Of a stretch of DNA of 64,000 nt, positions 3,561 to 56,800 are shown piece by piece. Position numbers and translations under genes: made by a program. The notes beneath the pieces were generated by a model. It was not told the DNA's origin, did no database searches, and saw only the letters and a program-made list of their open reading frames with translations. Source of the stretch: the human T2T-CHM13v2.0 reference genome, Homo sapiens. The stretch lies in assembly GCF_009914755.1 (NCBI RefSeq), contig NC_060941.1. One strand, given 5' to 3'. Position 1 is the first letter of the stretch. Every line of letters begins with the position of its first letter.

Positions 3561-4228
3561 CAAATTGAGAAGATTGGATAGAGCGAGATTTCAAGAAAAG
3601 CGTCTGATGCTGTAGTGGAAAGAGCAGGATCTGTAGTCAAGAGCCCGGGTTTATTTTCCTGCAGCCTTAGTTATGAGCCATGAGGCTTTCCCATCTATGG
3701 CCTGAACTTTCCTCCTCTGTCAATTGGAGATTCTGAGTTAAAACTCACCTCAAAGGGTTTTTGTGAGCATCAAATGATACAGCCAGGGCTCAGGGTCCCT
3801 AGCGCACAATTGGTGTTCAGAAAATGTTAGTTCTTCTCTCCTTCTTCTCCCACAGGGTGGGCGGGGCAGAAAAACGTCCCAGGGGCTTGGAGAATGTTTG
3901 GGAGGAATGGGGCCAGGGAAGGTGCCCAGGGATTTGCAGCTCAATGGGAGAAGGTATGGGTTGGTCCTAGGACCCTAAGCCCGGATGAGTGGGGACATGA
4001 CATTGTGTGTGTTGGGGAGGTCACAGGAAATGAGGGTGTCAGCACACCCATGGCTGATGGCTAAGGAGCCTGGGAGGGAAATTGAAGGAGAAAAGGTCAG
4101 CTCAGGTGGTCCCCCTACCTACCTCTCCCCCAGCTCCTCATCACTGGTTCTAGGAGAAGGAAATGAGACGTGACAGGTCCCTGGCCACCTGGGATAGGCT
4201 GAGAATGGAGACAGGATGGGCATAGGAG

Positions 4229-4282
<54 letters not shown>
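4229..4282. repeat. (TG)n(GA)n compound microsatellite
   Basis: Direct reading. Confidence 0.97.
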
Positions 4283-4326
4283 AGGAGGAAAGTAGGGAGG
4301 AAAGGAGAGAGACCTGTTATTCCTGA

Positions 4327-5180
<854 letters not shown>

Positions 5181-6384
5181 TCTTTTTTTATTTTTAAGGA
5201 AATAATGTCTTACAGACAGACTTCAAGAGCCTCCCCGAACCGGCCCCCAGGGCCTAGCTAGCTCTTAAGGCACCTGTGTGAGAATTAGGCACCTACTGGA
5301 AGGACCTTGCCCTGTGGGTACAGGGTGTGGCTGGTTGATGGTGCTTTCTATGAACAATTAAAGGCATCTTTCCTTCTGATGGGGAAGCCTCATACCAGGG
5401 CACGAGTTAGTTGGTGGAGCAAAGGGTGGATTTAGCCCTTGCTTTCCTCCTTGTGCAGTGAGCAACCTGCACACCCATATAGGGCAGTCCTCCACCCCTT
5501 TTCCCTCTTCTTCCTCCCACTGAGGGGCCATTCTATACTGATGCTGTTGTGTATCCCTCACATCTACATGTGTATATTTCCCCCTTTTCTCCCTTCCCTT
5601 TTCAATTCCTTTTCCTTCTTTCTCCTCCTGTTCCCAGCACTCACTGTGACAAGTCTTACACACCAGTCTCTTTGCATGCCTTTGTATGTCTTTGTGTAGC
5701 AGCCTTAGTATGTGTGTACATTATTATTGCTACATGGGATGGGTGTTCTCGTGGCATTCTTTCAGGGGTTGACACATCATAGGTGCTCAAGATGGTGTGA
5801 CTGGGTTGTGTGTCTATGTGTGTCTCTCTGTGCGTCTTGGCTCTCTGGCACTCCCCAGCCATTCCTTCCCCAGAGCTTAGAAGGGAGAGGGAATTAGAAG
5901 GGAATCCCACAGGGCTGAGGGCTTATCTCCTCCAGTCTCCTCTCAGCCTCTTCCTGGTCCATAGCTCTTTCACCATGATACTCAATCTTCCATGGAGACC
6001 CTGAAGAGGGCCCTGCCCTGCCCCATTGGCCTTGAGGTGGGGCCCCCTCTGCTTCCCTCCCCAGGCCTCCTAAGGCCTCCAAGCCAGAGCTGGTAGGAGA
6101 GCGGCAGGGGAGGGGGGAGTGGGAGGAGGAGAGGGAGCCCAAGGAAGCTGGGCAGGGGCTGGCGGCCCCTGGGACCCCTTTCTACAAGGACAGAGGCGGC
6201 ACCAGCTGCTCCACAGAAGAAATATTCCCCAAAGTCAGAGTGGTCGTCTCGTATTTTAAGTGGCCCTTATTTATCACCATCCTCCTGGGCTCCCTATCGC
6301 TGCAAATGATGATAAAAGACAGCGGTGAGGGGGGCGCGGGGGCTGCTCCCGGCTGGCCCTGCCGCACCAGGGGAGGCGCAGGCA

Positions 6385-6745
6385 CACAGCAACACACGGG
6401 CACAGCGACATGCACGATGACATACACACACAGATGCAGACACAGACACACAGTACCATCCATGACAACAGCTACACACACACACACACAGTGACATGCA
6501 CACACAGACTTAGCTGCAACAGTGACATGCCCACAAATGCTAACCACAAACATACATGCTGGGTGACACCCAAAGCTGTGAACATACACATAGCCTGATA
6601 CAGGCGCAGGGACACATTCACTTGCACACACATATACCAATATGCATGTACAGTGATAGACATACACCGGCACACACATGTGACAAACGTGTCACTCACC
6701 AAAACAAGCATGCACTCACACGCTCACCCCAGGCACTCACACCTC
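6385..6745. repeat. CA-rich low-complexity tract
   Basis: Degenerate (CA)n/CATG repeats. Confidence 0.85.
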
Positions 6746-7707: not shown

Positions 7708-8442
7708 TAGGCATACCTCTTAAATAAGCAGTCCATAACGCACACACCTGCCTGCCTGCTCACTCAGGGGAGCTGGGATTGGGGCTGTCACATTGAACTT
7801 CCCCTTATCAAGGGAAGTCTCCCTCCACCCTAATCCCACACCCATTTCCACATCCAGTTGCCAATCAGCCTCCCTCCCCAGCCTCAGCCCATTAGTACAG
7901 CTCCCTGGGGGAATCTATTTTTTAAAGGTTATTAGCAGATTATTGGTTCTTTATCAACCTCAGGCCCCAATCTCCAATCTCCCAACGAAGCTATTGTCGC
8001 CTAAAAAGATGCACTTGATAATCTTGGCATGAAGGTGGTGGAGGGCCTGGTGGGGTGGGGGCAGCTGGAAGGAGGGAAGGGTTAACAGCACCACCCCAGC
8101 CCCCACCCTCTCGGTCCTCAAATAGCTGAACTACTGTATGTTGTAGTTTTCAACTGCAAATCATCTTTAATAGCAGACATCACGGGATGGCTCATTACAT
8201 TAAGCTATTTTTCATGCTATCTCCTGTAATATCCTCTAATCCAATGCGTTTCAAATCACCTCGGGCTAAAATAAGAGACATAGCGATGTAATAGCCTAGT
8301 GTATTAGTGGGTTAATTGCCCTGTTGTACTCCTTCTAGTAGCTATCTCTGGAATGACTTCTATATTAATTGTAAATTGCTTAATACATTTAACTCCTTGC
8401 CACCGCCCTATCCCCTAGCGAAGGAGGCCACTACCCAGTTGC

Positions 8443-8481: not shown

Positions 8482-8842
8482 GTGGGCACTCCTTTCCAAC
8501 TCTGGTTCCCCTCTGTCTCCTTGGTCCAAGCTGGAAGAGCAGGTTTGGAATATACTTCTCTGTCTAATGAGGGGAAGGGAATGAGACAGGCATTTATTGA
8601 ACACCTACTATATGCCAGGCCCTGGGCTAGGCCTTTTCACCAAATGCTGTCTCACTGGAGCCTCAAAGACCCTGAGTAGTGGCAGCATTCAACCCAGAGG
8701 TCATGCAACTTGTTCAAGGTCACAGAGCTATGATATGATGAAGCTGTGGTTACACCCAGACCCGAGAGCTCCTAAACCACAGTGGCTGAGCGTGGGGCAG
8801 GACCCTGGAGCTTTGGACATTAAGTCAGATGCCGTCAGCAGG

Positions 8843-9185
8843 GTCCTGGGGCAGCTCCTGGTCTGCAGGGGAGAGACACAGCCCTTGAGAGACACAGCCC
8901 TTGACCTGTGGGAGTCCCCAGTCTGTTGGGAGAGACACAAGCCTTGCACTAGGGGAGTTCCCAGTCTGTTGAGGGAGCTCCAACCTCTAACCTGGGAAGC
9001 CCTAGTCTGATGGGAAGTCAGATCCTCTGCCAAGGGAAGCTCAGCAAATGGGGGACAGAGCTCCTGCTTTGGGAGCACCCACTCTGACGGAGGGATATGT
9101 CTTTGCTCTAGAGAGTCTCTGGTCTGATGAAGAAAACGTCACTTCTGTCCTGGAGGAACCCTCAGTCAGATGAGGGAGACACCGA
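8843..9185 (+). repeat. Degenerate ~41-bp tandem array A (~8 units)
   Basis: Recurring GGGAGCTCCCAGTCTGATGGGGAGAGACACAG-like unit; cores near 8861, 8921, 8964, 9005, ~9043, 9082, 9122, 9165. Confidence 0.75.
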
Positions 9186-9684
9186 TCCACACAGGGAAAA
9201 CAGAAATAAGGTGCAAATGAATGACAGGCAGGCAGAGCAAGTGCACAGGGCAGACAGTGAGCTCAGAGCACGAGGGGAGAATCAGCCCTGGCCTGCGTGG
9301 GCCTCAGGGCCAGACTGGGGGTCCCTCCCTGTTCGTTGCCTCTCTCTCCCTTCCTAGATGTGTGGTCTCTGAACTTCCCCCGGGCTGCCCCTTTCCCAGT
9401 CTGCGGAGGGAAACACCCTGGCCAGGGCAGAGGTAGAGACCTTCTCCTCTTGGTGCTGACAGCCCCAGCCGGCTCCCCCTTTTCCACAGAAGCCTCCAGC
9501 GGCCTTGGGACTCTCTTTCCTCCTCTCTGGACAGGTGACAAGTGGGGGTCCCTGGGGGAGAGGAAGGAGAAAGACCAGGAAGGCAGAAGGAGCTGAAGGA
9601 TGAGCATAGGGCCTGATGAAAGGGTGCCAAAGTCACAAGTCACAAGGGCAGACGAGTGTTTACCTTCTACAAAGTAGCACTTTC

Positions 9685-9856
9685 CACACACACAGGTACA
9701 CACACACACACACACACTTGCGCACACACATGCATGCACACACATAGGCGCACGCACACACAGGCACACACACACTCGCGCACACACCCGCACACTGCGC
9801 ACACGCACACACACACGGACACACGCATGCACACACGCACACGCGCGCACACACAC
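9685..9856. repeat. (CA)/(CG) alternating purine-pyrimidine tract
   Basis: About 170 bp of cacacacgcacacgcgcac-type repeats. Confidence 0.93.
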
Positions 9857-9984
9857 GATGCATTCTGCGTACCAGTCATACGGGAGTCACAGGATTGAAA
9901 TACTCTTGTCCTGCTTTCTCGGGGCACATAGCTGGGCAGAGGGACCCAAGTTCAAAGTTGCCTCACGGAGCCTTCTTCCCTCAG

Positions 9985-10860
9985 GGGCGGTCCTAACGAC
10001 CTCAGTCTGCGACAGAAGCGGGCCTTAGAGGCTCTCGGTGAGTCTGGGCCCGGGACTGTGGCCTCCTTACTCCCTGAGTTAAGTCCTTGGGCCAAAAAAA
10101 GAGAAAGAAGGAAGAAGAAGGAAAGGGAGGGGAGGGAAGGGACGCGGGGCGGAGGACGCAGCGGGCGGCCTGCGGAGGCGGCCTGGCTCGGGGTGGGGGC
10201 TCGGCCGGAGTTCCCGCGGCTGCTCGGCGGCGGCCGGCTCGGGAGCAACCTTGAGCGCGGTCGCGGAGACAGTGATTTAGGTGCCGGCACCGGAGCGTGA
10301 AGGTAAATGGCCACATTTCACCGTCGGGAGGTGAGCCGGAGGCGCCCGCCCTGGCCCTTCCCCCAAGGCCCCGGGCCGGTGGGGGCGGGAGTTTTGCTTC
10401 CCCTCTCTGACCCGCTCCGAGGCCCGCCTGGGAGGGCGGCGCCCCCACGGTGCAGGACAGGAGGGCTGCGCCGGGCTGCGGGGTGAGCAAGACCCCTAGA
10501 GCTGCCTTTCCCGACCCCTTCCTATTTGGGGGGCTGTTTCCCTCACTTCCCCGTCGCCCCGGCCTCCTCCCAAAGCTGCTTCCAGAGGGAAGCTGAGAAG
10601 CAAGTGCTTAAAGCCTCTGGCACTTGGGGGCGCCACCTTCTCTCAGGAGAGGGTGGGCGGCGGCACCTCCGGGGTGCTAGTCCACGCGCAGGGAGCTTCC
10701 CCAGGTCACCTCCTCTACTCCTCACCAGGGTCCATTGAGGCGGGGCCTGCCTTATCCCCATGGTGCAGATTAGGAGCCGAGGCCCGGGAGCTCGAGGGAC
10801 CTGCAGAAGGCCACGCGGCTGGAAGGGGTGGAGGAGGCTGGGGACCCAGGCCCCTGAGCC
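9985..10860. promoter_or_regulatory. CpG island 1
   Basis: Very GC-rich, dense CpG, GC boxes (GGGGCGG); boundaries approximate. Confidence 0.88.
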
Positions 10861-12172: not shown

Positions 12173-12276
12173 CCAGAGGAGGGTGTCTGGGGCGGGAGAG
12201 AGGTCATCCTTCATGGCCTGAAGACCAGAGGAGGCTGTCAGGGGCGGGAGAGAGGTCATCCTTCATGACCTGAAGA
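12173..12276 (+). repeat. 52-bp tandem duplication (2 copies)
   Basis: 12173-12224 vs 12225-12276, 3 mismatches. Confidence 0.95.
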
Positions 12277-13999: not shown

Positions 14000-14410
14000 G
14001 ACACAGATACACTCACACAGGCACACACCCACATGCACACACATGCAAATGTGCACCCAGACACACACATGCACCTGCATAAGCATGGGCACACACATGC
14101 AGATGTGCACCCAGACACACACATGCATGCGTAGGCACACACACGTGCACACACATGTAGATGGGCACCCACACACATGTGCGTGCGTAGGCACACACGT
14201 GCACATGCAAATGTGCACCCAGACACACATGCATACATATAGGCACACACACATGCACACATATGTAAATGTGGACCCACACACATGTGCATGCAGAGAC
14301 ACACACATGTACACACACGCGCAAATGTGCACCCAGACACACACATGCACATGCAGAGGCACACACACGTGCAAGTGCACACCTGCACAGACACATACAC
14401 ATATACACAC
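14000..14410. repeat. CA-rich degenerate minisatellite (~55-bp period)
   Basis: ATGTGCACCCAGACACAC-like anchors at 14049, 14103, 14161, 14211, 14269, 14325. Confidence 0.85.
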
Positions 14411-14586: not shown

Positions 14587-15036
<450 letters not shown>

Positions 15037-16029: not shown

Positions 16030-16400
16030 CTCTGTTTACCAGCCGGTCCATCCTTTCATTCATCACTTCGCCGGCACACACTTGTTCTGCACGTGCTGTG
16101 CACCTGGCTCTCACTAGTCAGACCTGGTCTCCACCTTCACAAATGTGGGGTTTGTGGGTAGGTGGCCTGGAGACATACACACACAGACACACACAGTCTC
16201 CTTCAGTGCAGAGTGAGAAGTGCTCTGATGGAGGAGGGAGCAAAGTGCTCTCGGAGTGTCAAGGATGGGCTGCTCCCTGTCTGGTGGGGATCAAGGAAGT
16301 CTTCTTGGAGAAGGTGACATTTGAAGAAAGAGTAGGAATTTCAGGTAGTCAAATAGGAAGAGGCAGCCTGGGAGGAGACACCTTGATGTGTGAGAGTCCA
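16030..16400 (-). mobile_element. L2 fragment
   Basis: ttcattcat start and atcaaggaagtcttcttggagaaggtgacatttga, typical reverse L2 3' region. Confidence 0.65.
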
Positions 16401-16694
16401 TCCTTACCCAACAGGCTGGAAGCTCCCTGGGTCAGGGAGGAGGGTGTGTCTCTCCCATCAGACTAAGATTTGAAAGGCAGAAGCTGAGCCCCTGTGCACA
16501 CCCTCCTCCCAAGACTGGGGATTCCTTGAGGGTGAGTTGATATCTCCTATTTCTCTCATCGTTTGTTCCAAATTGCAAGGCATTTGTTTCTTTGCATGTC
16601 CTGTTAGTTCTATGATAGCAGGGAACCTGCTTTATACATTGTGTCTCCCTAGTGTCTGTCACGGGACTTGTTCTATACAAAGGAGTAAATATTA

Positions 16695-17240: not shown

Positions 17241-19590
17241 CTGAACTCTCATACACGGGCCTTGATTACCTGTGAGTTGGGTGGGCTCAGCTTCCCCACA
17301 TGACTTGGAGGGGCAGCACCTCATGGCCAGCTCCAACAGCCTGGGCGCCGCTAGCTTTGGAGAAACTCCTCGGAGCTTTCAAGGCAGTAAAGAGTGAGTG
17401 TGGAGTGTGGTGAGGAGTGAGGCCACTGACAAGTACCCGGGGTCCCCAAGGGAGAGATGGGGGTGGGAGAAGCACACAGGTCTAGAGGGTTTAGCTAGAG
17501 TTGGGAAAGGACTGAGGAAGTGGGGCCACAGAAGTTGACAGAGGCAGGTGGGCAGGGGCAGTCATTGCCTAGAACCAGGTCTCCCCCTTCCCTTCCCCAC
17601 CTCTGTCCCTGTCCGGTCATGGTCAACACTTGAACCCAGTCCTTCACTTCCAGCCCCACAGCCCTGCCCTCAGCTGGCCTTCAGCCCCCTCACCCGGCCT
17701 CCCACCTTCCTCCTCTGGCCACCAGTTAGCTTCCTACAGCAGATTCGATTGCTTTATTCCTGTGCTCCAAGACCTTCCATGGCTCTGCGTGACCCCCGCC
17801 AGGCAGCAGCCCAGATCTCAAGGCTGCTCTCCAGCCCCGATGTGATCTGATCCCAGCCGTCCTTTCTGGCCTTGCCTCTCAAGTCTGTTCCTGGTGTCTT
17901 TTCTCATCTGCGTGTGCCCTCTCCATGAATCCCTCACTCAACCCCCAGTCGAATGCCTACTGTGTGTGTGTGTGACTCAGCTCAAGTCTTTCCCAGCCTG
18001 GAGCACTTTCCCTGACCACTCCTTCCAGAGGCGTGTCTGTTATGTGCAGTTCAGAGTTCCAAGTTGTCAAATTATTTCAAGTTCTTTCCTCAACTCGACT
18101 GTAAGCTCCCGGAGGAGGAGATCGTGGATGGCAGCGATAAGTGTGTGTCTGTGCCTGCTAATAACAACCACCTATTCAGTACCAAAACAATTCACATCCA
18201 AGGATTCCCAGCCTTTGTGCTGCGTCTCCCTCCAAGGAAGTTTCTGTGTGTTTGGTCTGCTGTGGGCCCCAGTTGCTGGGGAGGGAGGAAAATTGAAAGA
18301 AGCCCCCAAATCTCAGATTAGTTTCCATCAGGCAAAGCAGAGTATTTCTCCCAGGTGAAAAGGATAGAAGTGGATAAAGGCAGAAGGGAGCGCGGGGAGA
18401 ACCAGGCCGCTGTTGGGGCTGAGGCTGGTGAAGGTTGTGGGGAGACTGAGACACCGTGGCCATGCTGCCAGAGGGAGCAGGAGATGGAAAAATAGGACTC
18501 TAAGAAGTTGGGATTTGTTTTAGGAATGTAAATGCCCATTTACAGATGCTTTGGTCAGAACTGGAGCTGCATTTCAGTGTCCTGTGGTGATGGACTGATG
18601 TCTTCTCTGAATGCAGCACCATATAGAGACTGGCCACAGGGTGACCCAGAACTACACAGGTTATGCTGTCACTTGAGCATAACCAATGCCTGCCAGGGGA
18701 GGCCAATGCCTGCCCTGGGCCAGGAGCTACATTTACACATAGCAACCTGAACTGGATGCCACCTGAACTGATGAGAAAACTAAGCTTCAGAGAATTTAGG
18801 AACACCGAAGGGAGAGAATGAGGAGGAGGAAGAGAGGGAAAAAGGTAGATCTGGCCCTGACTCAGAACTGTAACTCTTGACCTCTAATCTGAGAGCTACA
18901 TCTTAGCGTGGGGCCACCATGGCCATTGAGTGCCCTGCTGTGGGAGACGTAGTAGGCTCATTGGGCTAGAAAATGAGTATATCAGCTTAGCTATGTCCTT
19001 GGGGTCAGAGGTGACCCAGGCCAAGGTCTCTGTAGCTATTAGGAGCCAGATGACAGTTTGATTCGTTAGCCTGGGGAAGCCCTCTTGTGAAGCCTGAGAT
19101 GGGAGGGAATGGGAGGGTCTGGGAGACGTGCAGCAGGGTGGGCCGGGGCCATTGGATTGCTGACCATGAGGACTTGTCACCATGGATGACCTCCATTGCT
19201 GTACCAGTGAGCCTCCTCCCGTTGGCATGGGTAGCCTTATTGGGAAGTGGGCACCTTTATTAACTAAGAATCACTTCATTTAGTGAGTGAGGGGTGGGGC
19301 TTGGCTCAGCATAATACGGTGGGAAGCAGCCCAGGCTTTCAGGTCAGGAAACCTGGGTTCTAGGCCCCATTTGGCTGCAGGGGAGTCCCTGAACGTCACT
19401 GTGTGCCTCAGTTTCTCCTTCATAAGTTGTGGATGCAAATGCCCATTCTGCTCCTCTCAGAGGATGCTGCAGACATGACAGTGATTTGAAGGGTCAAGTT
19501 CACTGTTCAAATGCAAGCTGGAGGTGAGAATGGGGTCAGTAGCTCTTTAGCGAGATGAAGCCTCTGAGGACGGGCCAGTCACAGGCTCAC

Positions 19591-34088: not shown

Positions 34089-35324
34089 AGAAGCCCACCT
34101 ATTCTAACTAGAGTCAAAGGCTGGAGTGCCAACGGTGCCTCAGGACAGGTCCTGCGGAGATGAGCCCCTGAACCTCTGCTTCTCTCAACCCACTTAAATG
34201 AAGCCCCAGTCTTCCCCAGACACCACGTGGAGGCCGAGAAACCCACTGATAGATGGTGGGTGGGGGTGGACATACTGGTGGCCCCAGTTGGCTTCCTGTC
34301 ACACCAGGGCATCCCCTCCCATATGAAGTCACCGTGAGATCTCTCTATCCCAGCTAGGTTAGTTGCTCTTAATTAAACCAATTGTTGGACTTAATACCCA
34401 TCCCATTAACATGTCTCCCAGATCTATTAATTATGACCAGTGGAGGAAGGGCACGGGAGCTTTGGGTGGGGATGCAGGGGTTTGAAAACCAAGCCAATCT
34501 GCCTCACAGAGAAGGGGCAAGTTCATTCCTGGATATGAGGGCAATCTGGCTGCAACATTTGTCACCCCGTTGATCACCAGGATTGATTTGGGTGATCTGG
34601 CTGGCTAGGCGGGTGTCCCCGTCCTCCCTCACTGCTCCATGTGTGTCCCTGCTGAAGCTGCACACTTGGAGAGGATGACCTTCCCTGATAGAGGAGGACT
34701 GTTCTTTGGTCAAGGGTATACCAGGAGCTCGACTCGCCTGCTGGAACCTCCGAACAACCTCTCAGGTTCACTCCTTGTTTCCTCCTGGGAGTCTTGGAAA
34801 CATTCATTACAGCCTCAGAATTCCTGGAAGCCTGCTGTGTCTGCATCCCATGGGGTCTAACTGAGGCCCTCTGGCCACCATGACCCTTGGGACCCCTTTC
34901 CCATTTAGCTTTCTCAGAGCCACTGGGGCAGGGACAGGGGAGGTGGAGGTGACTGTCATTGGTGCAAGGTAGGGGCCAAGAACTCATCCGTGGGGTCAGA
35001 ACGGAGGCTGAGTGGGAATGAGGATTACAGATGGAGAGCTGGAGTTACCCCAGCTCCACCCACACACACCTGTGTTCAGAATGTTCCCTCTGCAGCTCTT
35101 TGGGACCAGGTAGGGCTCCCTAAATCCCTCTGTACTCTGATCAGGCCTTCCTGGATGGTGGGTGGACTTAGAGGCAGATGCTGGACCTACGCAGGGATGC
35201 TCAGACTATTAGTAGGCCCTCCCCTTGTGCCTTCTCCTTCCTCCTTCCCTCCCAACTGGGCCCTCCCCGCTGCCCCCAGTGTCAGGGGCCAGCCAGGGCA
35301 GGAAGGGAACTAGGGTGGGGCCCT

Positions 35325-51636: not shown

Positions 51637-51744
51637 GCTGGGAGAGACTTCGGAAAGCACCCAGTTTAAGATCTTTATTTCAGAGATGAGGCTGGGAGAG
51701 ACTCTGGAAAGCATCCAGTTTAAGGTCTTTATTTCAGAGATGAG
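51637..51744 (+). repeat. 54-bp tandem duplication at the edge of a MIR-like element
   Basis: 51637-51690 vs 51691-51744. Confidence 0.93.
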
Positions 51745-52097
51745 GAGTTGAGGCTCAGAGAGGCCATTGACTTCTCCAAGATCCATAGAGATGGACTGGA
51801 CTCTTGACTCTCAGCCCTGTTTCCTTTCCATTGCACTCCTTCCTTTTTTATGGTAGAATGGACAAGGTCAGATCAGAACCAGTGACTATGAAACATCAGA
51901 ATCCTGGCTCTGCAGCTCCCTGTCTCAGACCCAGGCAGACCCAAGATAGCATTTTTTTCCCCTGAACTTAGGTAAGAGGGATTCTTTGGTCACTCAGCTC
52001 TGTCTGAGATGTCAACATGTGGTTTTCTGACCCCAAGAACCTTCCAGACCACCTCTCTGGCCCCTAATCCCCTAGGCCTTGGCTGACCTATGGTCTC

Positions 52098-55332: not shown

Positions 55333-56050
55333 CGCCCTGGGTGATGTGTGGGAGCTTCCAGTGTAGTGGGGGAACCTCTGCTCTTGAGGGGCCCTCAGAC
55401 TCCCATGAAGGAGTCATGTTCCTACCTGAGGTTCCCAGTCTTATGGAAGAGACTCAGTTTCTGATCTGAGAGGGGCTTCTGGTCTGGTGCTGGAACCCCT
55501 GTCCTTGGAGGGTTCCCATTCTTATGGAGTAACCACAGTGCCTTCCACCAGGGAGGTCTGCAGTCTTATGAGAGTTCCAACCCCCTGGTCTGAGAAGCAT
55601 TTTAGTTTTATGGGAGAAATCCAGCTTCCAATCAGGGTGGGGGCCTTCTGATCTGGTTGGGGAAACTGGGCCCTTACCCTGCAGAAACTCCAGTCTGATA
55701 GAGGAGACACAGCCTCTGTGTTCTGGAAGGCCTCCCAGTTCGATGGTAGAGAAAAATTCTTGCTCTGTGGGAGCCTAAATATGGAGAGGGATGTATAACA
55801 CTTGGCATAGTAAAATCCCAGTCTAATGGGGGAGACAGAGTCTGTCTTTCAAGAGATTTCAGTCTGTTGAGAGAACAGGGTGGCCTAAAGAAGGCCCATC
55901 TGATGGAAGAAAACAGAGCCTGCCCGTCAGGGAGCTCCCAGACCACTGGGGAAGAGAGACCCCTTGGCCTCAGGGGATGCCAGTGTGATCGGGGAGGGCT
56001 TCTTTGCAGTGGCAGATACCCTGGTCTTATGGTCTTATTGGGAAGACATG
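55333..56050 (+). repeat. Degenerate ~42-bp tandem array B (~17 units)
   Basis: CCCAGTCT(G/T)ATGG-like cores at about 55361, 55398, 55438, 55482, 55519, 55563, 55605, 55651, 55693, 55738, 55779, 55821, 55862, 55898, 55941, 55983, 56024. Confidence 0.78.
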
Positions 56051-56199
56051 GTACCCAAGGTGGGGCAGCTTCCACCCTTTACAGGGATGGCAGGGCGAGT
56101 AAAGGCAAGCAGACTGCAGAAACCCCGAAAGAGGGGAGGCACAAACCGTTCAGCTCAGCTGGGTAGAAATCGGCTCAAGCCCATCAGAGTGACAGATAC

Positions 56200-56800
56200 C
56201 CGGGGAGGCTGGGCGTGCCAAGCTGGACCGGTCCGGCCAGGCTGGAAGCCCAGCTGCCTGCTTTTTCTCAGTGCCTGGAGACCACCCGCCTTTTCAGCAC
56301 CACGGTCAGCGGCCTTTTCGCAGGCGCGCGCCCCAGCCCCGCCCCGGGTTGGGCTGGCATCCAGCCTCCGGGCCCTTCTGCGTGTCCCTCGGCCCACCGG
56401 CATCCCGGGCTGGAGGTGTGGGTGGGGCAGGCGACCGGGGTATGAGAGGCGGTGGGGTGCCTCCTCCGCGCGTCTCTGCGAGTATCTGTCTCCCCCATGC
56501 GTCCGCTGCTCCTCATAGAGGCGTCGGGAGAGTGTGTTCGCGACTTTCTCGCACAGCGGCTGCGCCCGCGCCTGACCCTGCCAAGAGAGGGGACACTTCC
56601 TCCACCTCATCCCCTACTCCAGGGTCAGGAAGGGGGTCAAGGCTTCCTCTTGGGGTCAGGTCAGCGAGAGCAGGTCAGATGTCTCTGAAGGCATGGGGAG
56701 GGGGGGGTGTGTGTGCCTGTGCACGCGCCGCGGGTGCGTTTGGGGATGTCGCAGGGAAGAGATCATCTTACTACCATGTCTTCTTGGGGCACTGCAGTAC
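56200..56800. promoter_or_regulatory. CpG island 2
   Basis: GC-rich with dense CpG (GGCGCGCG, CCGCGCG); boundaries approximate. Confidence 0.85.
56293..56313 (+). promoter_or_regulatory. REST/NRSF RE1 (NRSE) site
   Basis: TTCAGCACCACGGTCAGCGGC vs consensus TTCAGCACCACGGACAGCGCC, 19/21. Confidence 0.78.

What the first reader, a model, noticed from the sequence alone, without database searches (positions are those of the whole stretch)
8843..9185. Second array of the same unit, same orientation, upstream of CpG island 1
Seen: about 8 units (e.g. GGGAGTCCCCAGTCTGTTGGGAGAGACACA, GGGAGTTCCCAGTCTGTTGAGGGAG, GGGAAGCCCTAGTCTGATGGGAAG), spaced ~40-43 bp after allowing for a 16-bp internal duplication (GAGAGACACAGCCCTT x2). 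It ends ~800 bp before island 1. The only two such arrays I see in 64 kb both precede the only two CpG islands, 46 kb apart, and their flanks share no visible homology. Inference: independent expansion or retention of one repeat family at island shores, not a segmental duplication.
Basis: partly seen in the sequence, partly recalled or inferred. Interest (0 to 1): 0.72.

Follow-up and report, generated by a model that had tools for sequence, protein, structure and literature searches.

The report
Decayed L2-derived minisatellite array
This is a real but ordinary relic: a decayed tandem repeat of about 41 bases from a family scattered over several human chromosomes, and its place beside a CpG island looks like coincidence, not a rule.

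Summary
The array is real. It has 8-9 head-to-tail units of 37-46 bp at 8808-9194 (+), and it shares unit and orientation with a 17-unit array at 55350-56062 (A vs B local alignment z=13.6, 0 of 200 shuffles).

The unit belongs to a multi-locus minisatellite family. Exact-pattern scans of the genome found about 35 loci, about 20 of them within chr6:37.4-44.0 Mb.

The family is not tied to CpG islands. At 16 other loci, 24 of 27 arrays have no strict CpG island in the 10 kb fetched, and 1 of 27 lies within 500 bp of one.

Units of A and B are saturated: 57-61% pairwise identity, fully interleaved on a tree, no register signal. Independent expansion and ancient duplication therefore cannot be told apart. 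Flanks show no homology, but that test is blind at this age.

The unit matches the antisense 3' end of LINE-2 at 22 of 28 positions. The family profiles do not detect MSR1.

Verdict: an ordinary decayed member of a TE-derived minisatellite family. The island-shore idea is not supported.

The parts
8808..9194 (+). Array B, the finding: 8-9 degenerate units of 37-46 bp. Array consensus is about 41 bp with core CCAGTCTGATGGGGGAGACACAG.
   Evidence: Read; units aligned. Profile from other chromosomes only: E=5.9e-12, 1.5e-9 and 2e-4. Units are 65% identical to the array consensus.
8871..8904 (+). Exact 16-bp internal duplication inside the second unit: a recent slippage event.
   Evidence: TRF: period 16, 2.1 copies, 100% matches.
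8887..8971 (+). The best-preserved pair of units (43 bp x 2, 83% matches). This is the younger 5' part of the array.
   Evidence: TRF score 121; 23-mer repeat.
55350..56062 (+). Array A, the sister array: 17 degenerate units of 37-51 bp, ending about 140 bp before the second CpG island.
   Evidence: Segmentation. B-only profile hits at 55684-55719 (E=1e-5), 55815-55842 (0.0043) and 55432-55465 (0.014). Independent profile: E from 4.3e-9 to 3e-6. Units are 59% identical to the array consensus.
16407..16549 (-).
   Evidence: R1 model: 16438-16548, 29.7 bits, E=2.9e-8, and 16403-16437, 11.5 bits. Independent profile: E=6.2e-7 and 2.5e-5. Read.
9621..10490 (.). CpG island 1 (context): GC 0.64, observed/expected CpG 0.77, 68 CpGs. 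Its first part is a CpG-bearing CA-rich microsatellite (9685-9857). The annotated lncRNA LOC105371750 starts at 9826, 632 bp after the end of array B.
   Evidence: CpG scan; TRF; the hub's gene table.
56201..56670 (.). CpG island 2 (context): GC 0.69, observed/expected CpG 0.67, 37 CpGs.
   Evidence: CpG scan.
18089..18109 (-). A single, non-tandem copy of the interspersed-repeat motif that the unit resembles. I recall its surroundings as a LINE-2 3' end.
   Evidence: Motif search, 3 mismatches; read; weak R1 hit at 18087-18125 (5.9 bits, E=0.77).

Best explanation
Array B is an old, decayed minisatellite, as are its sisters A and C. All three belong to a multi-locus minisatellite family whose 38-43-bp unit descends from the antisense strand of the 3' end of LINE-2. 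That is the same short segment that gives the 5p arms of miR-28, miR-151a and miR-708.

Inferred mechanism, from general knowledge of minisatellites: such arrays grow and shrink by replication slippage and unequal exchange between units. While that turnover runs, the units stay alike. When it stops, the units drift apart by point mutation.

Shown: the chr17 arrays are the drifted state, with units 59-65% identical to their own consensus against 86-97% in arrays on chr1, chr6 and chr19. Only the 5' end of B shows later small duplications.

Inferred: the three chr17 arrays form a small regional cluster of the same kind as the large cluster on chr6p21. The position of A and B just upstream of the two CpG islands is coincidence in a GC-rich, promoter-bearing stretch, not a property of the family. 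I assign the array no sequence-specific function.
For: - The array is real and related to A: z=13.6, 0 of 200 shuffles.
- Family membership was shown with a profile that contains no chr17 sequence.
- The family is genome-wide. The strict two-unit pattern gives 73 matches against 1 in the reversed-pattern control, at chr1:36.38M, 12 chr6 loci, chr17 (B), chr19:47.53M and chr22:37.53M. Further loci appear (38 matches against 0 control).
- Flanks of 13 arrays show nothing in common by eye. By BLAST only ~300-bp interspersed repeats and the arrays themselves are shared.
- Decay: identity to own consensus is 0.59 for A and 0.65 for B, against 0.86-0.97 elsewhere.
- No tie to CpG islands: 1 of 27 arrays within 500 bp of a strict island and 24 of 27 with none in 10 kb; under the lenient definition 4 of 27 against 3.9 expected.
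- LINE-2 link: the consensus units of A, B and chr19 each match the 28-nt motif at 22 of 28 positions on the same strand, and 0 of 2000 shuffled motifs reach that. The motif is dispersed, with 95 genome matches at up to 2 mismatches against 0 control, on most chromosomes.
[quoted passage not shown] Two of these sequences match the units: the chr19 unit against miR-151a-5p at 16 of 21 (0 of 1000 shuffles), and the B unit against miR-28-5p at 15 of 22 (0 of 1000).
- About 23% of human minisatellites/satellites are TE-derived, and 185 clusters are multi-locus (PMC3389668, abstract and passages).
Against: - In this window 2 of 3 arrays lie 140-430 bp upstream of the two largest CpG islands, on the same strand. 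7.3% of the window lies within 500 bp of a strict island, so at least 2 of 3 would happen by chance about 1.5% of the time (my binomial, post hoc).
- One other locus, chr6:43.84M (L046), repeats the layout: array, 336 bp, then a 1.1-kb island.
- The 16 loci tested for islands are the best-preserved arrays. Old degenerate arrays like A, which the genome DNA search cannot find, may be distributed differently. About 16 further loci could not be fetched.
- No LINE-2 sequence was shown in the flanks of A or B (z=0.9 and 1.4 against an in-window copy).
- The chr6-type and chr1-type units match the miRNA sequences no better than shuffles, and miR-708-5p matches no unit consensus better than shuffles do (50 or more of 1000 reach it).
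- A search for LINE-2-state proto-arrays found none.
- That the 28-nt motif is LINE-2 rests on my recall plus the miRNA tables, not on a repeat library.
Confidence: 0.6

Rival explanations
1. Ancient duplication of a module. One ancestral [array + CpG-island promoter] unit was duplicated over about 47 kb long ago. Only the arrays are still recognisable, because their internal redundancy keeps the signal detectable.
For: - Same order (array, then island), same strand, and similar gaps of 140-430 bp.
- A and B consensus units share an identical 23-nt core.
- Units of A and B interleave completely on the tree.
- The flank test is blind at this age: two putative LINE-2 3' ends in the window also score only z=0.9.
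Against: - No flank or island similarity: z from -0.7 to 1.8.
- No colinear matches at that offset.
- No unit-register diagonal between the arrays: offset means 0.55-0.61, flat.
- B's consensus is no closer to A's (0.83) than to chr19 (0.86) or chr6 arrays (0.85-0.88).
- Elsewhere the family disperses without its flanks.
Confidence: 0.15
2. This repeat family is preferentially born, expanded or retained at CpG-island shores, whether through a mutational coupling or through a promoter-proximal regulatory role like that reported for MSR1.
For: - A and B precede the two largest islands.
- L046 has the same layout.
- In all 4 cases where an array lies within 2 kb of a strict island (A, B, L046, L050), the island is downstream in unit orientation.
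- Precedent: an MSR1 cluster about 630 bp upstream of the PRPF31 start site changes promoter output (PMC4725990, abstract and passages). Array B ends 632 bp before the annotated lncRNA start.
Against: - 24 of 27 arrays at other loci have no strict island within the fetched 10 kb. The lenient count, 4 of 27, equals the expectation of 3.9.
- Array C has no adjoining island over 320 bp.
- The RefSeq functional elements in the hub's table (7731-8440, 9798-10334) do not overlap array B.
- Units are decayed to near saturation, so there is no sign of constraint.
Confidence: 0.12
3. Recurrent independent births. A, B and C each arose in place from three separate LINE-2 3' ends, because that segment is prone to tandem duplication.
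For: - The unit matches the LINE-2 motif at 22 of 28 positions.
- Unit A1 keeps a LINE-2-like state (2 mismatches to the 21-nt motif).
- TE segments are known to seed minisatellites (PMC3389668).
Against: - All arrays share derived states that differ from the LINE-2 motif (CCCAG and TCTGATGG/TCTGAGGG), which points to one founder.
- No LINE-2 flanks were detected.
- Immediately upstream of B lies what I read as an antisense MIR, not a LINE-2 tail (recalled identification).
- The search for tandem LINE-2-state units found none: the 9 matches all belong to another repeat, against 21 in the control (low power).
Confidence: 0.1
4. Chance resemblance: there is no real repeat.
For: TRF at default settings reports only 2 units.
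Against: as given under the observation check.
Confidence: 0.01

Closest known systems
MSR1 minisatellite (36-38 bp, densest on chromosome 19q)
   Same: Both are dispersed, regionally clustered GC-rich minisatellites with unit lengths in the high thirties to low forties. Both are often promoter-proximal: the PRPF31 cluster lies about 630 bp upstream of the start site (PMC4725990), and array B ends 632 bp before the annotated lncRNA start. Both share a short GTCTGAGGGAGGAG-like core with the chr1-type unit (read).
   Different: The unit sequence is different. The PRPF31 MSR1 cluster (L053 7431-7581, period 36-37, 4 copies) gets only E=4.2 with the chr17 unit profile, and no hit at E<=0.001 with the family model R1. 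The densest region of this family is chr6p21, not 19q. No regulatory effect is known for it.
TE-derived multi-locus tandem repeats (Ahmed and Liang 2012, PMC3389668; Ames et al. 2008, not held)
   Same: A minisatellite whose unit is a piece of a transposable element, present at many loci. That paper counts 7,276 TE-derived tandem repeats and 185 multi-locus clusters (abstract and passages).
   Different: I could not check whether this particular unit is among their clusters. The supplements were not opened, and Ames et al. is not held.
LINE-2 3' end, the segment giving miR-28 / miR-151a / miR-708 5p arms
   Same: The first ~28 nt of the unit match the motif at 22 of 28 positions. The chr19 unit matches miR-151a-5p at 16 of 21 and the B unit matches miR-28-5p at 15 of 22. 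Orientation is antisense to LINE-2, as for those 5p arms (PMC6433296 Table 1).
   Different: Here the segment is tandemly repeated and carries derived substitutions. No Rfam miRNA family of that group is hit. No LINE-2 flanks were demonstrated.
Promoter-associated polymorphic tandem repeats (Quilez et al. 2016, PMC4857002)
   Same: A tandem repeat within 1 kb of a start site. 4,849 such promoter tandem repeats were studied (search listing and abstract only).
   Different: Array B is decayed. Nothing here shows copy-number polymorphism or an effect on expression.

Membership tests
Multi-locus minisatellite family with the CCAGTCTGA(T/G)GG...GAGACA unit (unnamed here) | Unit sequence recognised by a profile built from other members only | tested here: met
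   An HMM of 15 three-unit segments from chr1, chr6 and chr19 hits B (E=5.9e-12), A (4.3e-9) and C (6.2e-7). No other window hit has E below 0.01.
Multi-locus minisatellite family with the CCAGTCTGA(T/G)GG...GAGACA unit (unnamed here) | Head-to-tail tandem arrangement with a period of 38-43 bp | tested here: met
   B units are 37-46 bp and A units 37-51 bp. Other members have periods of 38-39 (chr6), 40 (chr1) and 42 (chr19).
MSR1 | Unit of 36-38 bp with the MSR1 sequence | tested here: not met
   The authentic MSR1 cluster upstream of PRPF31 scores E=4.2 with the chr17 unit profile and is not hit by R1 at E<=0.001. B's consensus is 41 bp.
MSR1 | Highest density on chromosome 19q | tested here: not met
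   The pattern scans find 4 chr19 loci against about 20 on chr6:37.4-44.0 Mb. These are exact-pattern lower bounds.
LINE-2-derived tandem repeat | Unit homologous to a LINE-2 consensus segment | tested here: inconclusive
   22 of 28 matches to a dispersed 28-nt motif, which corresponds to L2c-derived miRNA sequences printed in PMC6433296. No repeat library was available, so the LINE-2 name rests on recall plus that paper.
LINE-2-derived tandem repeat | LINE-2 sequence continuing in the flanks (origin in place) | tested here: inconclusive
   z=0.9 (B) and 1.4 (A) against an in-window copy. The same test fails on two putative LINE-2 ends (z=0.9), so it lacks power.
Segmental / tandem duplication of array plus island | Homology of non-repeat flanks, colinear at one offset | tested here: not met
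   The test is insensitive beyond roughly LINE-2 age.
   1 of 27 arrays (strict definition) and 4 of 27 (lenient, 3.9 expected) lie within 500 bp at 16 other loci. This is a partial census of well-preserved arrays only.

The most novel reading that the evidence does not exclude
The unit defines a minisatellite family for which my searches found no printed name, built from the LINE-2 segment that also makes miR-28/151a/708. It has a 6.5-Mb hot region on 6p21.2-p21.1 (about 20 arrays) and old members at 17q12. A subset sitting just upstream of CpG-island promoters (A, B, chr6:43.84M) would act like MSR1 as copy-number-dependent promoter modulators. Minus-strand transcripts of the homogeneous arrays would also carry dozens of tandem sites complementary to LINE-2-derived miRNAs.
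Probability: 0.08. Interest if true: 0.6.

Novelty: new member of a known kind. Interest (0 to 1): 0.28.

Why it matters
For this window it matters little. The array is a decayed relic, and the apparent repeat-island pairing does not generalise.

The wider by-product may be of modest use to people who annotate human repeats. A profile built from these arrays links about 35 loci into one family, with a striking concentration on chr6p21. The family appears to derive from the LINE-2 3' end, and the family profiles do not detect MSR1. If it is absent from Dfam, it is a small annotation gain, and it offers a second example beside MSR1 of a regionally clustered minisatellite family.

Tried and rejected
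1. Flank homology between A and B by local alignment against 200 dinucleotide shuffles. Downstream z=0.1; upstream z=-0.7; island vs island z=0.0 (+/+) and 1.8 (+/-); whole 1.3 kb downstream z=0.1. My first impression by eye of downstream homology was therefore dropped.
2. Window self-BLAST for a 44-49 kb diagonal: only ~300-bp interspersed repeats.
3. Unit tree and identity statistics: uninformative because of saturation.
4. A transposon with array-bearing inverted ends. Several loci have arrays in opposite orientation 0.5-2.5 kb apart, but the segments between them share only ~300-bp interspersed repeats. Rejected at this sensitivity.
5. MSR1 membership: rejected.
6. Tandem pairs of the LINE-2-state unit in the genome: 9 matches, all from another repeat, against 21 in the control.
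7. Rfam. At gathering threshold there is nothing in the arrays. At E<=10 there are only sub-threshold chance hits, none to mir-28/151/708.
8. Paper search for four unit strings: 0 papers. Search for a 6p21 minisatellite family: nothing relevant among the 6 listed. These two searches are the only basis for saying I found no printed name.
9. Genome DNA search with array A: only itself, so degenerate arrays escape that tool.
Whether more arrays flank the window, and whether the loci lie near islands, stays open.

Full report
**What is there**

Reading 8600-10400 shows a run of related units starting GGGAG..CCCAGTCTG.TGGGAGAGACA. I cut it into nine units between 8808 and 9194: 40, 62, 43, 41, 40, 37, 40, 41 and 43 bp. 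The 62-bp unit holds an exact 16-bp duplication at 8871-8904 (TRF: 2.1 copies, 100% matches). TRF reports only the two best copies (8887-8971, period 43, 83% matches). The rest is too decayed for it.

**Is it more than chance**

- The 23-mer of unit 2 recurs 43 bp later with 3 mismatches, with 0 expected.
- The 12-nt core has 11 matches at up to 1 mismatch against 2.8 +/- 1.75 expected, and 0 of 100 shuffles reach 11.
- The decisive test is independent of the window. An HMM made only of 15 three-unit segments from arrays on chr1, chr6 and chr19 hits B at E=5.9e-12, 1.5e-9 and 2e-4. It hits array A at E=4.3e-9 to 3e-6. It also hits a third place, 16407-16549 on the minus strand, at E=6.2e-7 and 2.5e-5. 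Nothing else in the 64 kb has E below 0.01.

**The sister arrays**

Array A lies at 55350-56062 and has 17 units of 37-51 bp. A and B align locally with score 48 against 16.1 +/- 2.3 for shuffles (z=13.6, 0 of 200). The reverse complement gives z=1.9, so the shared orientation is real.

'Only two arrays' therefore needs correcting.

My CpG scan finds 9621-10490 and 56201-56670 as the only islands longer than 320 bp. B ends 430 bp before the first island by that definition. It ends about 800 bp before the GC-rich core, because the island's first part is a CpG-bearing CA-rich microsatellite. A ends 140 bp before the second island.

*Units of A against units of B.* Mean pairwise identity is 0.57 within A, 0.61 within B and 0.58 between, against 0.51 for unit versus shuffled unit. 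A label permutation gives p=0.41. No offset of B against A stands out (0.55-0.61). A likelihood tree of the 26 units needs 9 changes of the A/B label, the maximum possible, and all 500 of 500 shuffles need as few or fewer. None of its 23 inner branches is well supported. The units are saturated, so the tree shows neither separate clades nor a duplicated register.

*Flanks.* None of the comparisons exceeds shuffles (z from -0.7 to 1.8). The window has no colinear matches at a 44-49 kb offset apart from ~300-bp interspersed repeats. The same alignment test also fails on two stretches that I read as LINE-2 3' ends (z=0.9). It therefore excludes a young duplication only.

*Arrays far from islands.* See the two sections that follow.

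**A genome-wide family**

The window's genome can be searched.
- Array B as a DNA query finds arrays at chr6:43.73M, chr6:40.27M and chr19:47.53M.
- A strict two-unit pattern gives 73 matches against 1 in the reversed control. They fall at chr1:36.38M, twelve chr6 loci between 38.88 and 43.90 Mb, B itself, chr19:47.53M and chr22:37.53M.
- Two looser patterns add chr6 loci at 37.44, 40.58, 43.63, 43.78, 43.82, 43.89 and 43.99 Mb. They also add loci on chr1 (11.24M, 21.42M), three on chr16, chr17 (39.33M, 48.57M, 50.81M) and chr19 (4.26M, 6.70M, 11.46M). One search's list was cut after 100 of 152 rows. In one search, five of the 38 rows look unrelated by eye.

In total that is about 35 loci, about 20 of them in 6.5 Mb of chr6p21. 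These are lower bounds, because array A finds only itself.

Unit length is regional: 38-39 bp on chr6, 40 on chr1, 42 on chr19 and about 41 on chr17. Flanks of 13 arrays share nothing visible. By BLAST the loci share only ~300-bp interspersed repeats and the arrays themselves.

**CpG islands across the family**

I fetched 10 kb around 16 loci and merged the model's hits into 27 arrays.
- With a strict island definition (at least 300 bp, GC at least 0.55, observed/expected at least 0.65), 1 of 27 arrays lies within 500 bp, 2 within 1 kb and 3 within 2 kb. The other 24 have no island in the fetched stretch.
- With a lenient definition, 4 of 27 lie within 500 bp. 14.6% of the fetched sequence does, so 3.9 are expected.

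Three caveats apply. These are the best-preserved arrays. The loci could not be fetched. And one locus (chr6:43.84M) does repeat the array-then-island layout. Inside the window, 2 of 3 arrays next to islands has a post-hoc chance of about 1.5% (7.3% of the window lies within 500 bp of a strict island; my binomial).

**Age**

Units are 59% (A) and 65% (B) identical to their own array consensus, against 86-97% in seven arrays elsewhere. The chr17 arrays are thus the most decayed members seen. I infer that homogenisation stopped long ago, except for small later duplications at B's 5' end. B's consensus is no closer to A's (0.83) than to chr19 (0.86) or chr6 (0.85-0.88). A and B therefore show no special kinship beyond family membership.

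**Origin of the unit**

I recalled a LINE-2 3'-end motif and tested it.
- The 21-nt form hits unit A1 with 2 mismatches, and hits a single copy at 18089-18109 (-).
- The 28-nt form has 95 genome matches at up to 2 mismatches on most chromosomes, against 0 in the control, so it belongs to an old interspersed repeat.
- The consensus units of A, B and chr19 match it at 22 of 28 positions on the same strand, and 0 of 2000 shuffled motifs reach that. chr1 matches 20 of 28. Four of the five chr6 consensuses match 17 of 28 ungapped, and chr6:40.27M only 13 of 28, no better than shuffles.
[quoted passage not shown] Two of these sequences match the units: chr19 vs miR-151a-5p at 16 of 21, and B vs miR-28-5p at 15 of 22, each with 0 of 1000 shuffles reaching it. 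miR-708-5p matches no unit consensus better than shuffles do, and the chr1 and chr6 units do not match any of the three significantly.

I therefore read the unit as a derivative of the antisense LINE-2 3' end, with about 65% confidence.

All arrays share states that differ from the motif, and no LINE-2-state tandem pairs were found (low power). This favours one founder followed by dispersal over many independent births. How arrays move without their flanks is not shown here.

**Comparison with MSR1**

I located PRPF31 through its Pfam domain and fetched the upstream region. There I found the published MSR1 cluster: period 36-37, 4 copies, at L053 7431-7581, 300 bp from a CpG island. The chr17 unit profile gives it E=4.2, and model R1 gives no hit at E<=0.001.

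The family resembles MSR1 in being regionally clustered and sometimes promoter-proximal, but the family profiles do not detect MSR1, so I do not file it as MSR1. PMC4725990 (abstract, one section and passages) gives the precedent for a promoter-proximal minisatellite that changes expression. Nothing here shows that for array B, and the RefSeq functional elements in the hub's table do not overlap it.

**Verdict**

It is not supported on the island-shore association, and it is undecidable on independent expansion. The thing itself is an ordinary, decayed member of a TE-derived multi-locus minisatellite family. I searched the papers for the unit strings and for a 6p21 minisatellite family and found no name for it. 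That does not show it is unnamed in Dfam.

Noticed in passing
G000 chr6:37.44-43.99 Mb (loci L036-L048 and rows): About 20 separate arrays of the 38-39-bp form of this unit lie within 6.5 Mb of chr6p21, each with unique flanks. The exact-pattern scans found no array of this unit elsewhere on chr6. This regional concentration recalls MSR1 on 19q.
   Followed up: partly
L049 2603-3425(+) / 3968-5886(-); L047 3278-3722(+) / 4466-5406(-); L046 1847-2015(+) / 4467-5239(-); L043 2840-2931(+) / 4925-5206(-); L044 4951-5166(-) / 6245-6526(+): Five of the 16 fetched loci carry arrays in opposite orientation 0.5-2.5 kb apart. In three of them a CpG-rich stretch lies between the arms. The inner segments share only ~300-bp interspersed repeats. 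In the window, B(+) and C(-) bracket CpG island 1 in the same convergent way, 7.2 kb apart.
   Followed up: partly
window 34531-34843 (+): A full-length match to 7SK RNA (Rfam RF00100, 171.8 bits, E=3.3e-46, model positions 1-331 of 331). It is not in the hub's gene table and is probably a 7SK pseudogene copy.
   Followed up: no
window 8595-8800 (+ strand reading): Immediately upstream of array B lies what I read, from recall of the MIR consensus, as an antisense MIR element ending about 10 bp before the first unit. The chr1 array (L035) also has a MIR-like antisense head about 100 bp upstream. Two of about 16 is within chance for so common a repeat.
   Followed up: no
window 16040-16395 (-): Array C abuts what I read, from recall, as a LINE-2 3' end in sense orientation on the same strand, which is inverted relative to the units' LINE-2-antisense polarity. 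One hallmark motif matched with 1 mismatch.
   Followed up: no
window 12173-12276 and 51637-51745: Two young two-copy tandem duplications unrelated to the family: 52 bp x 2 at 94% matches and 54 bp x 2 at 92%.
   Followed up: no
window 14024-14373: A degenerate CA/TG-rich minisatellite with nested periods of 26, 54-58 and 108 bp (TRF scores up to 357). It overlaps a RefSeq 'silencer' interval (14668-14873) only at its edge region.
   Followed up: no
G000 chr16:32.36M, 33.37M, 35.51M and chr17:39.33M: Four places carry almost the same 43-bp unit pair. The three chr16 places are pericentromeric and look like copies of one segment.
   Followed up: no
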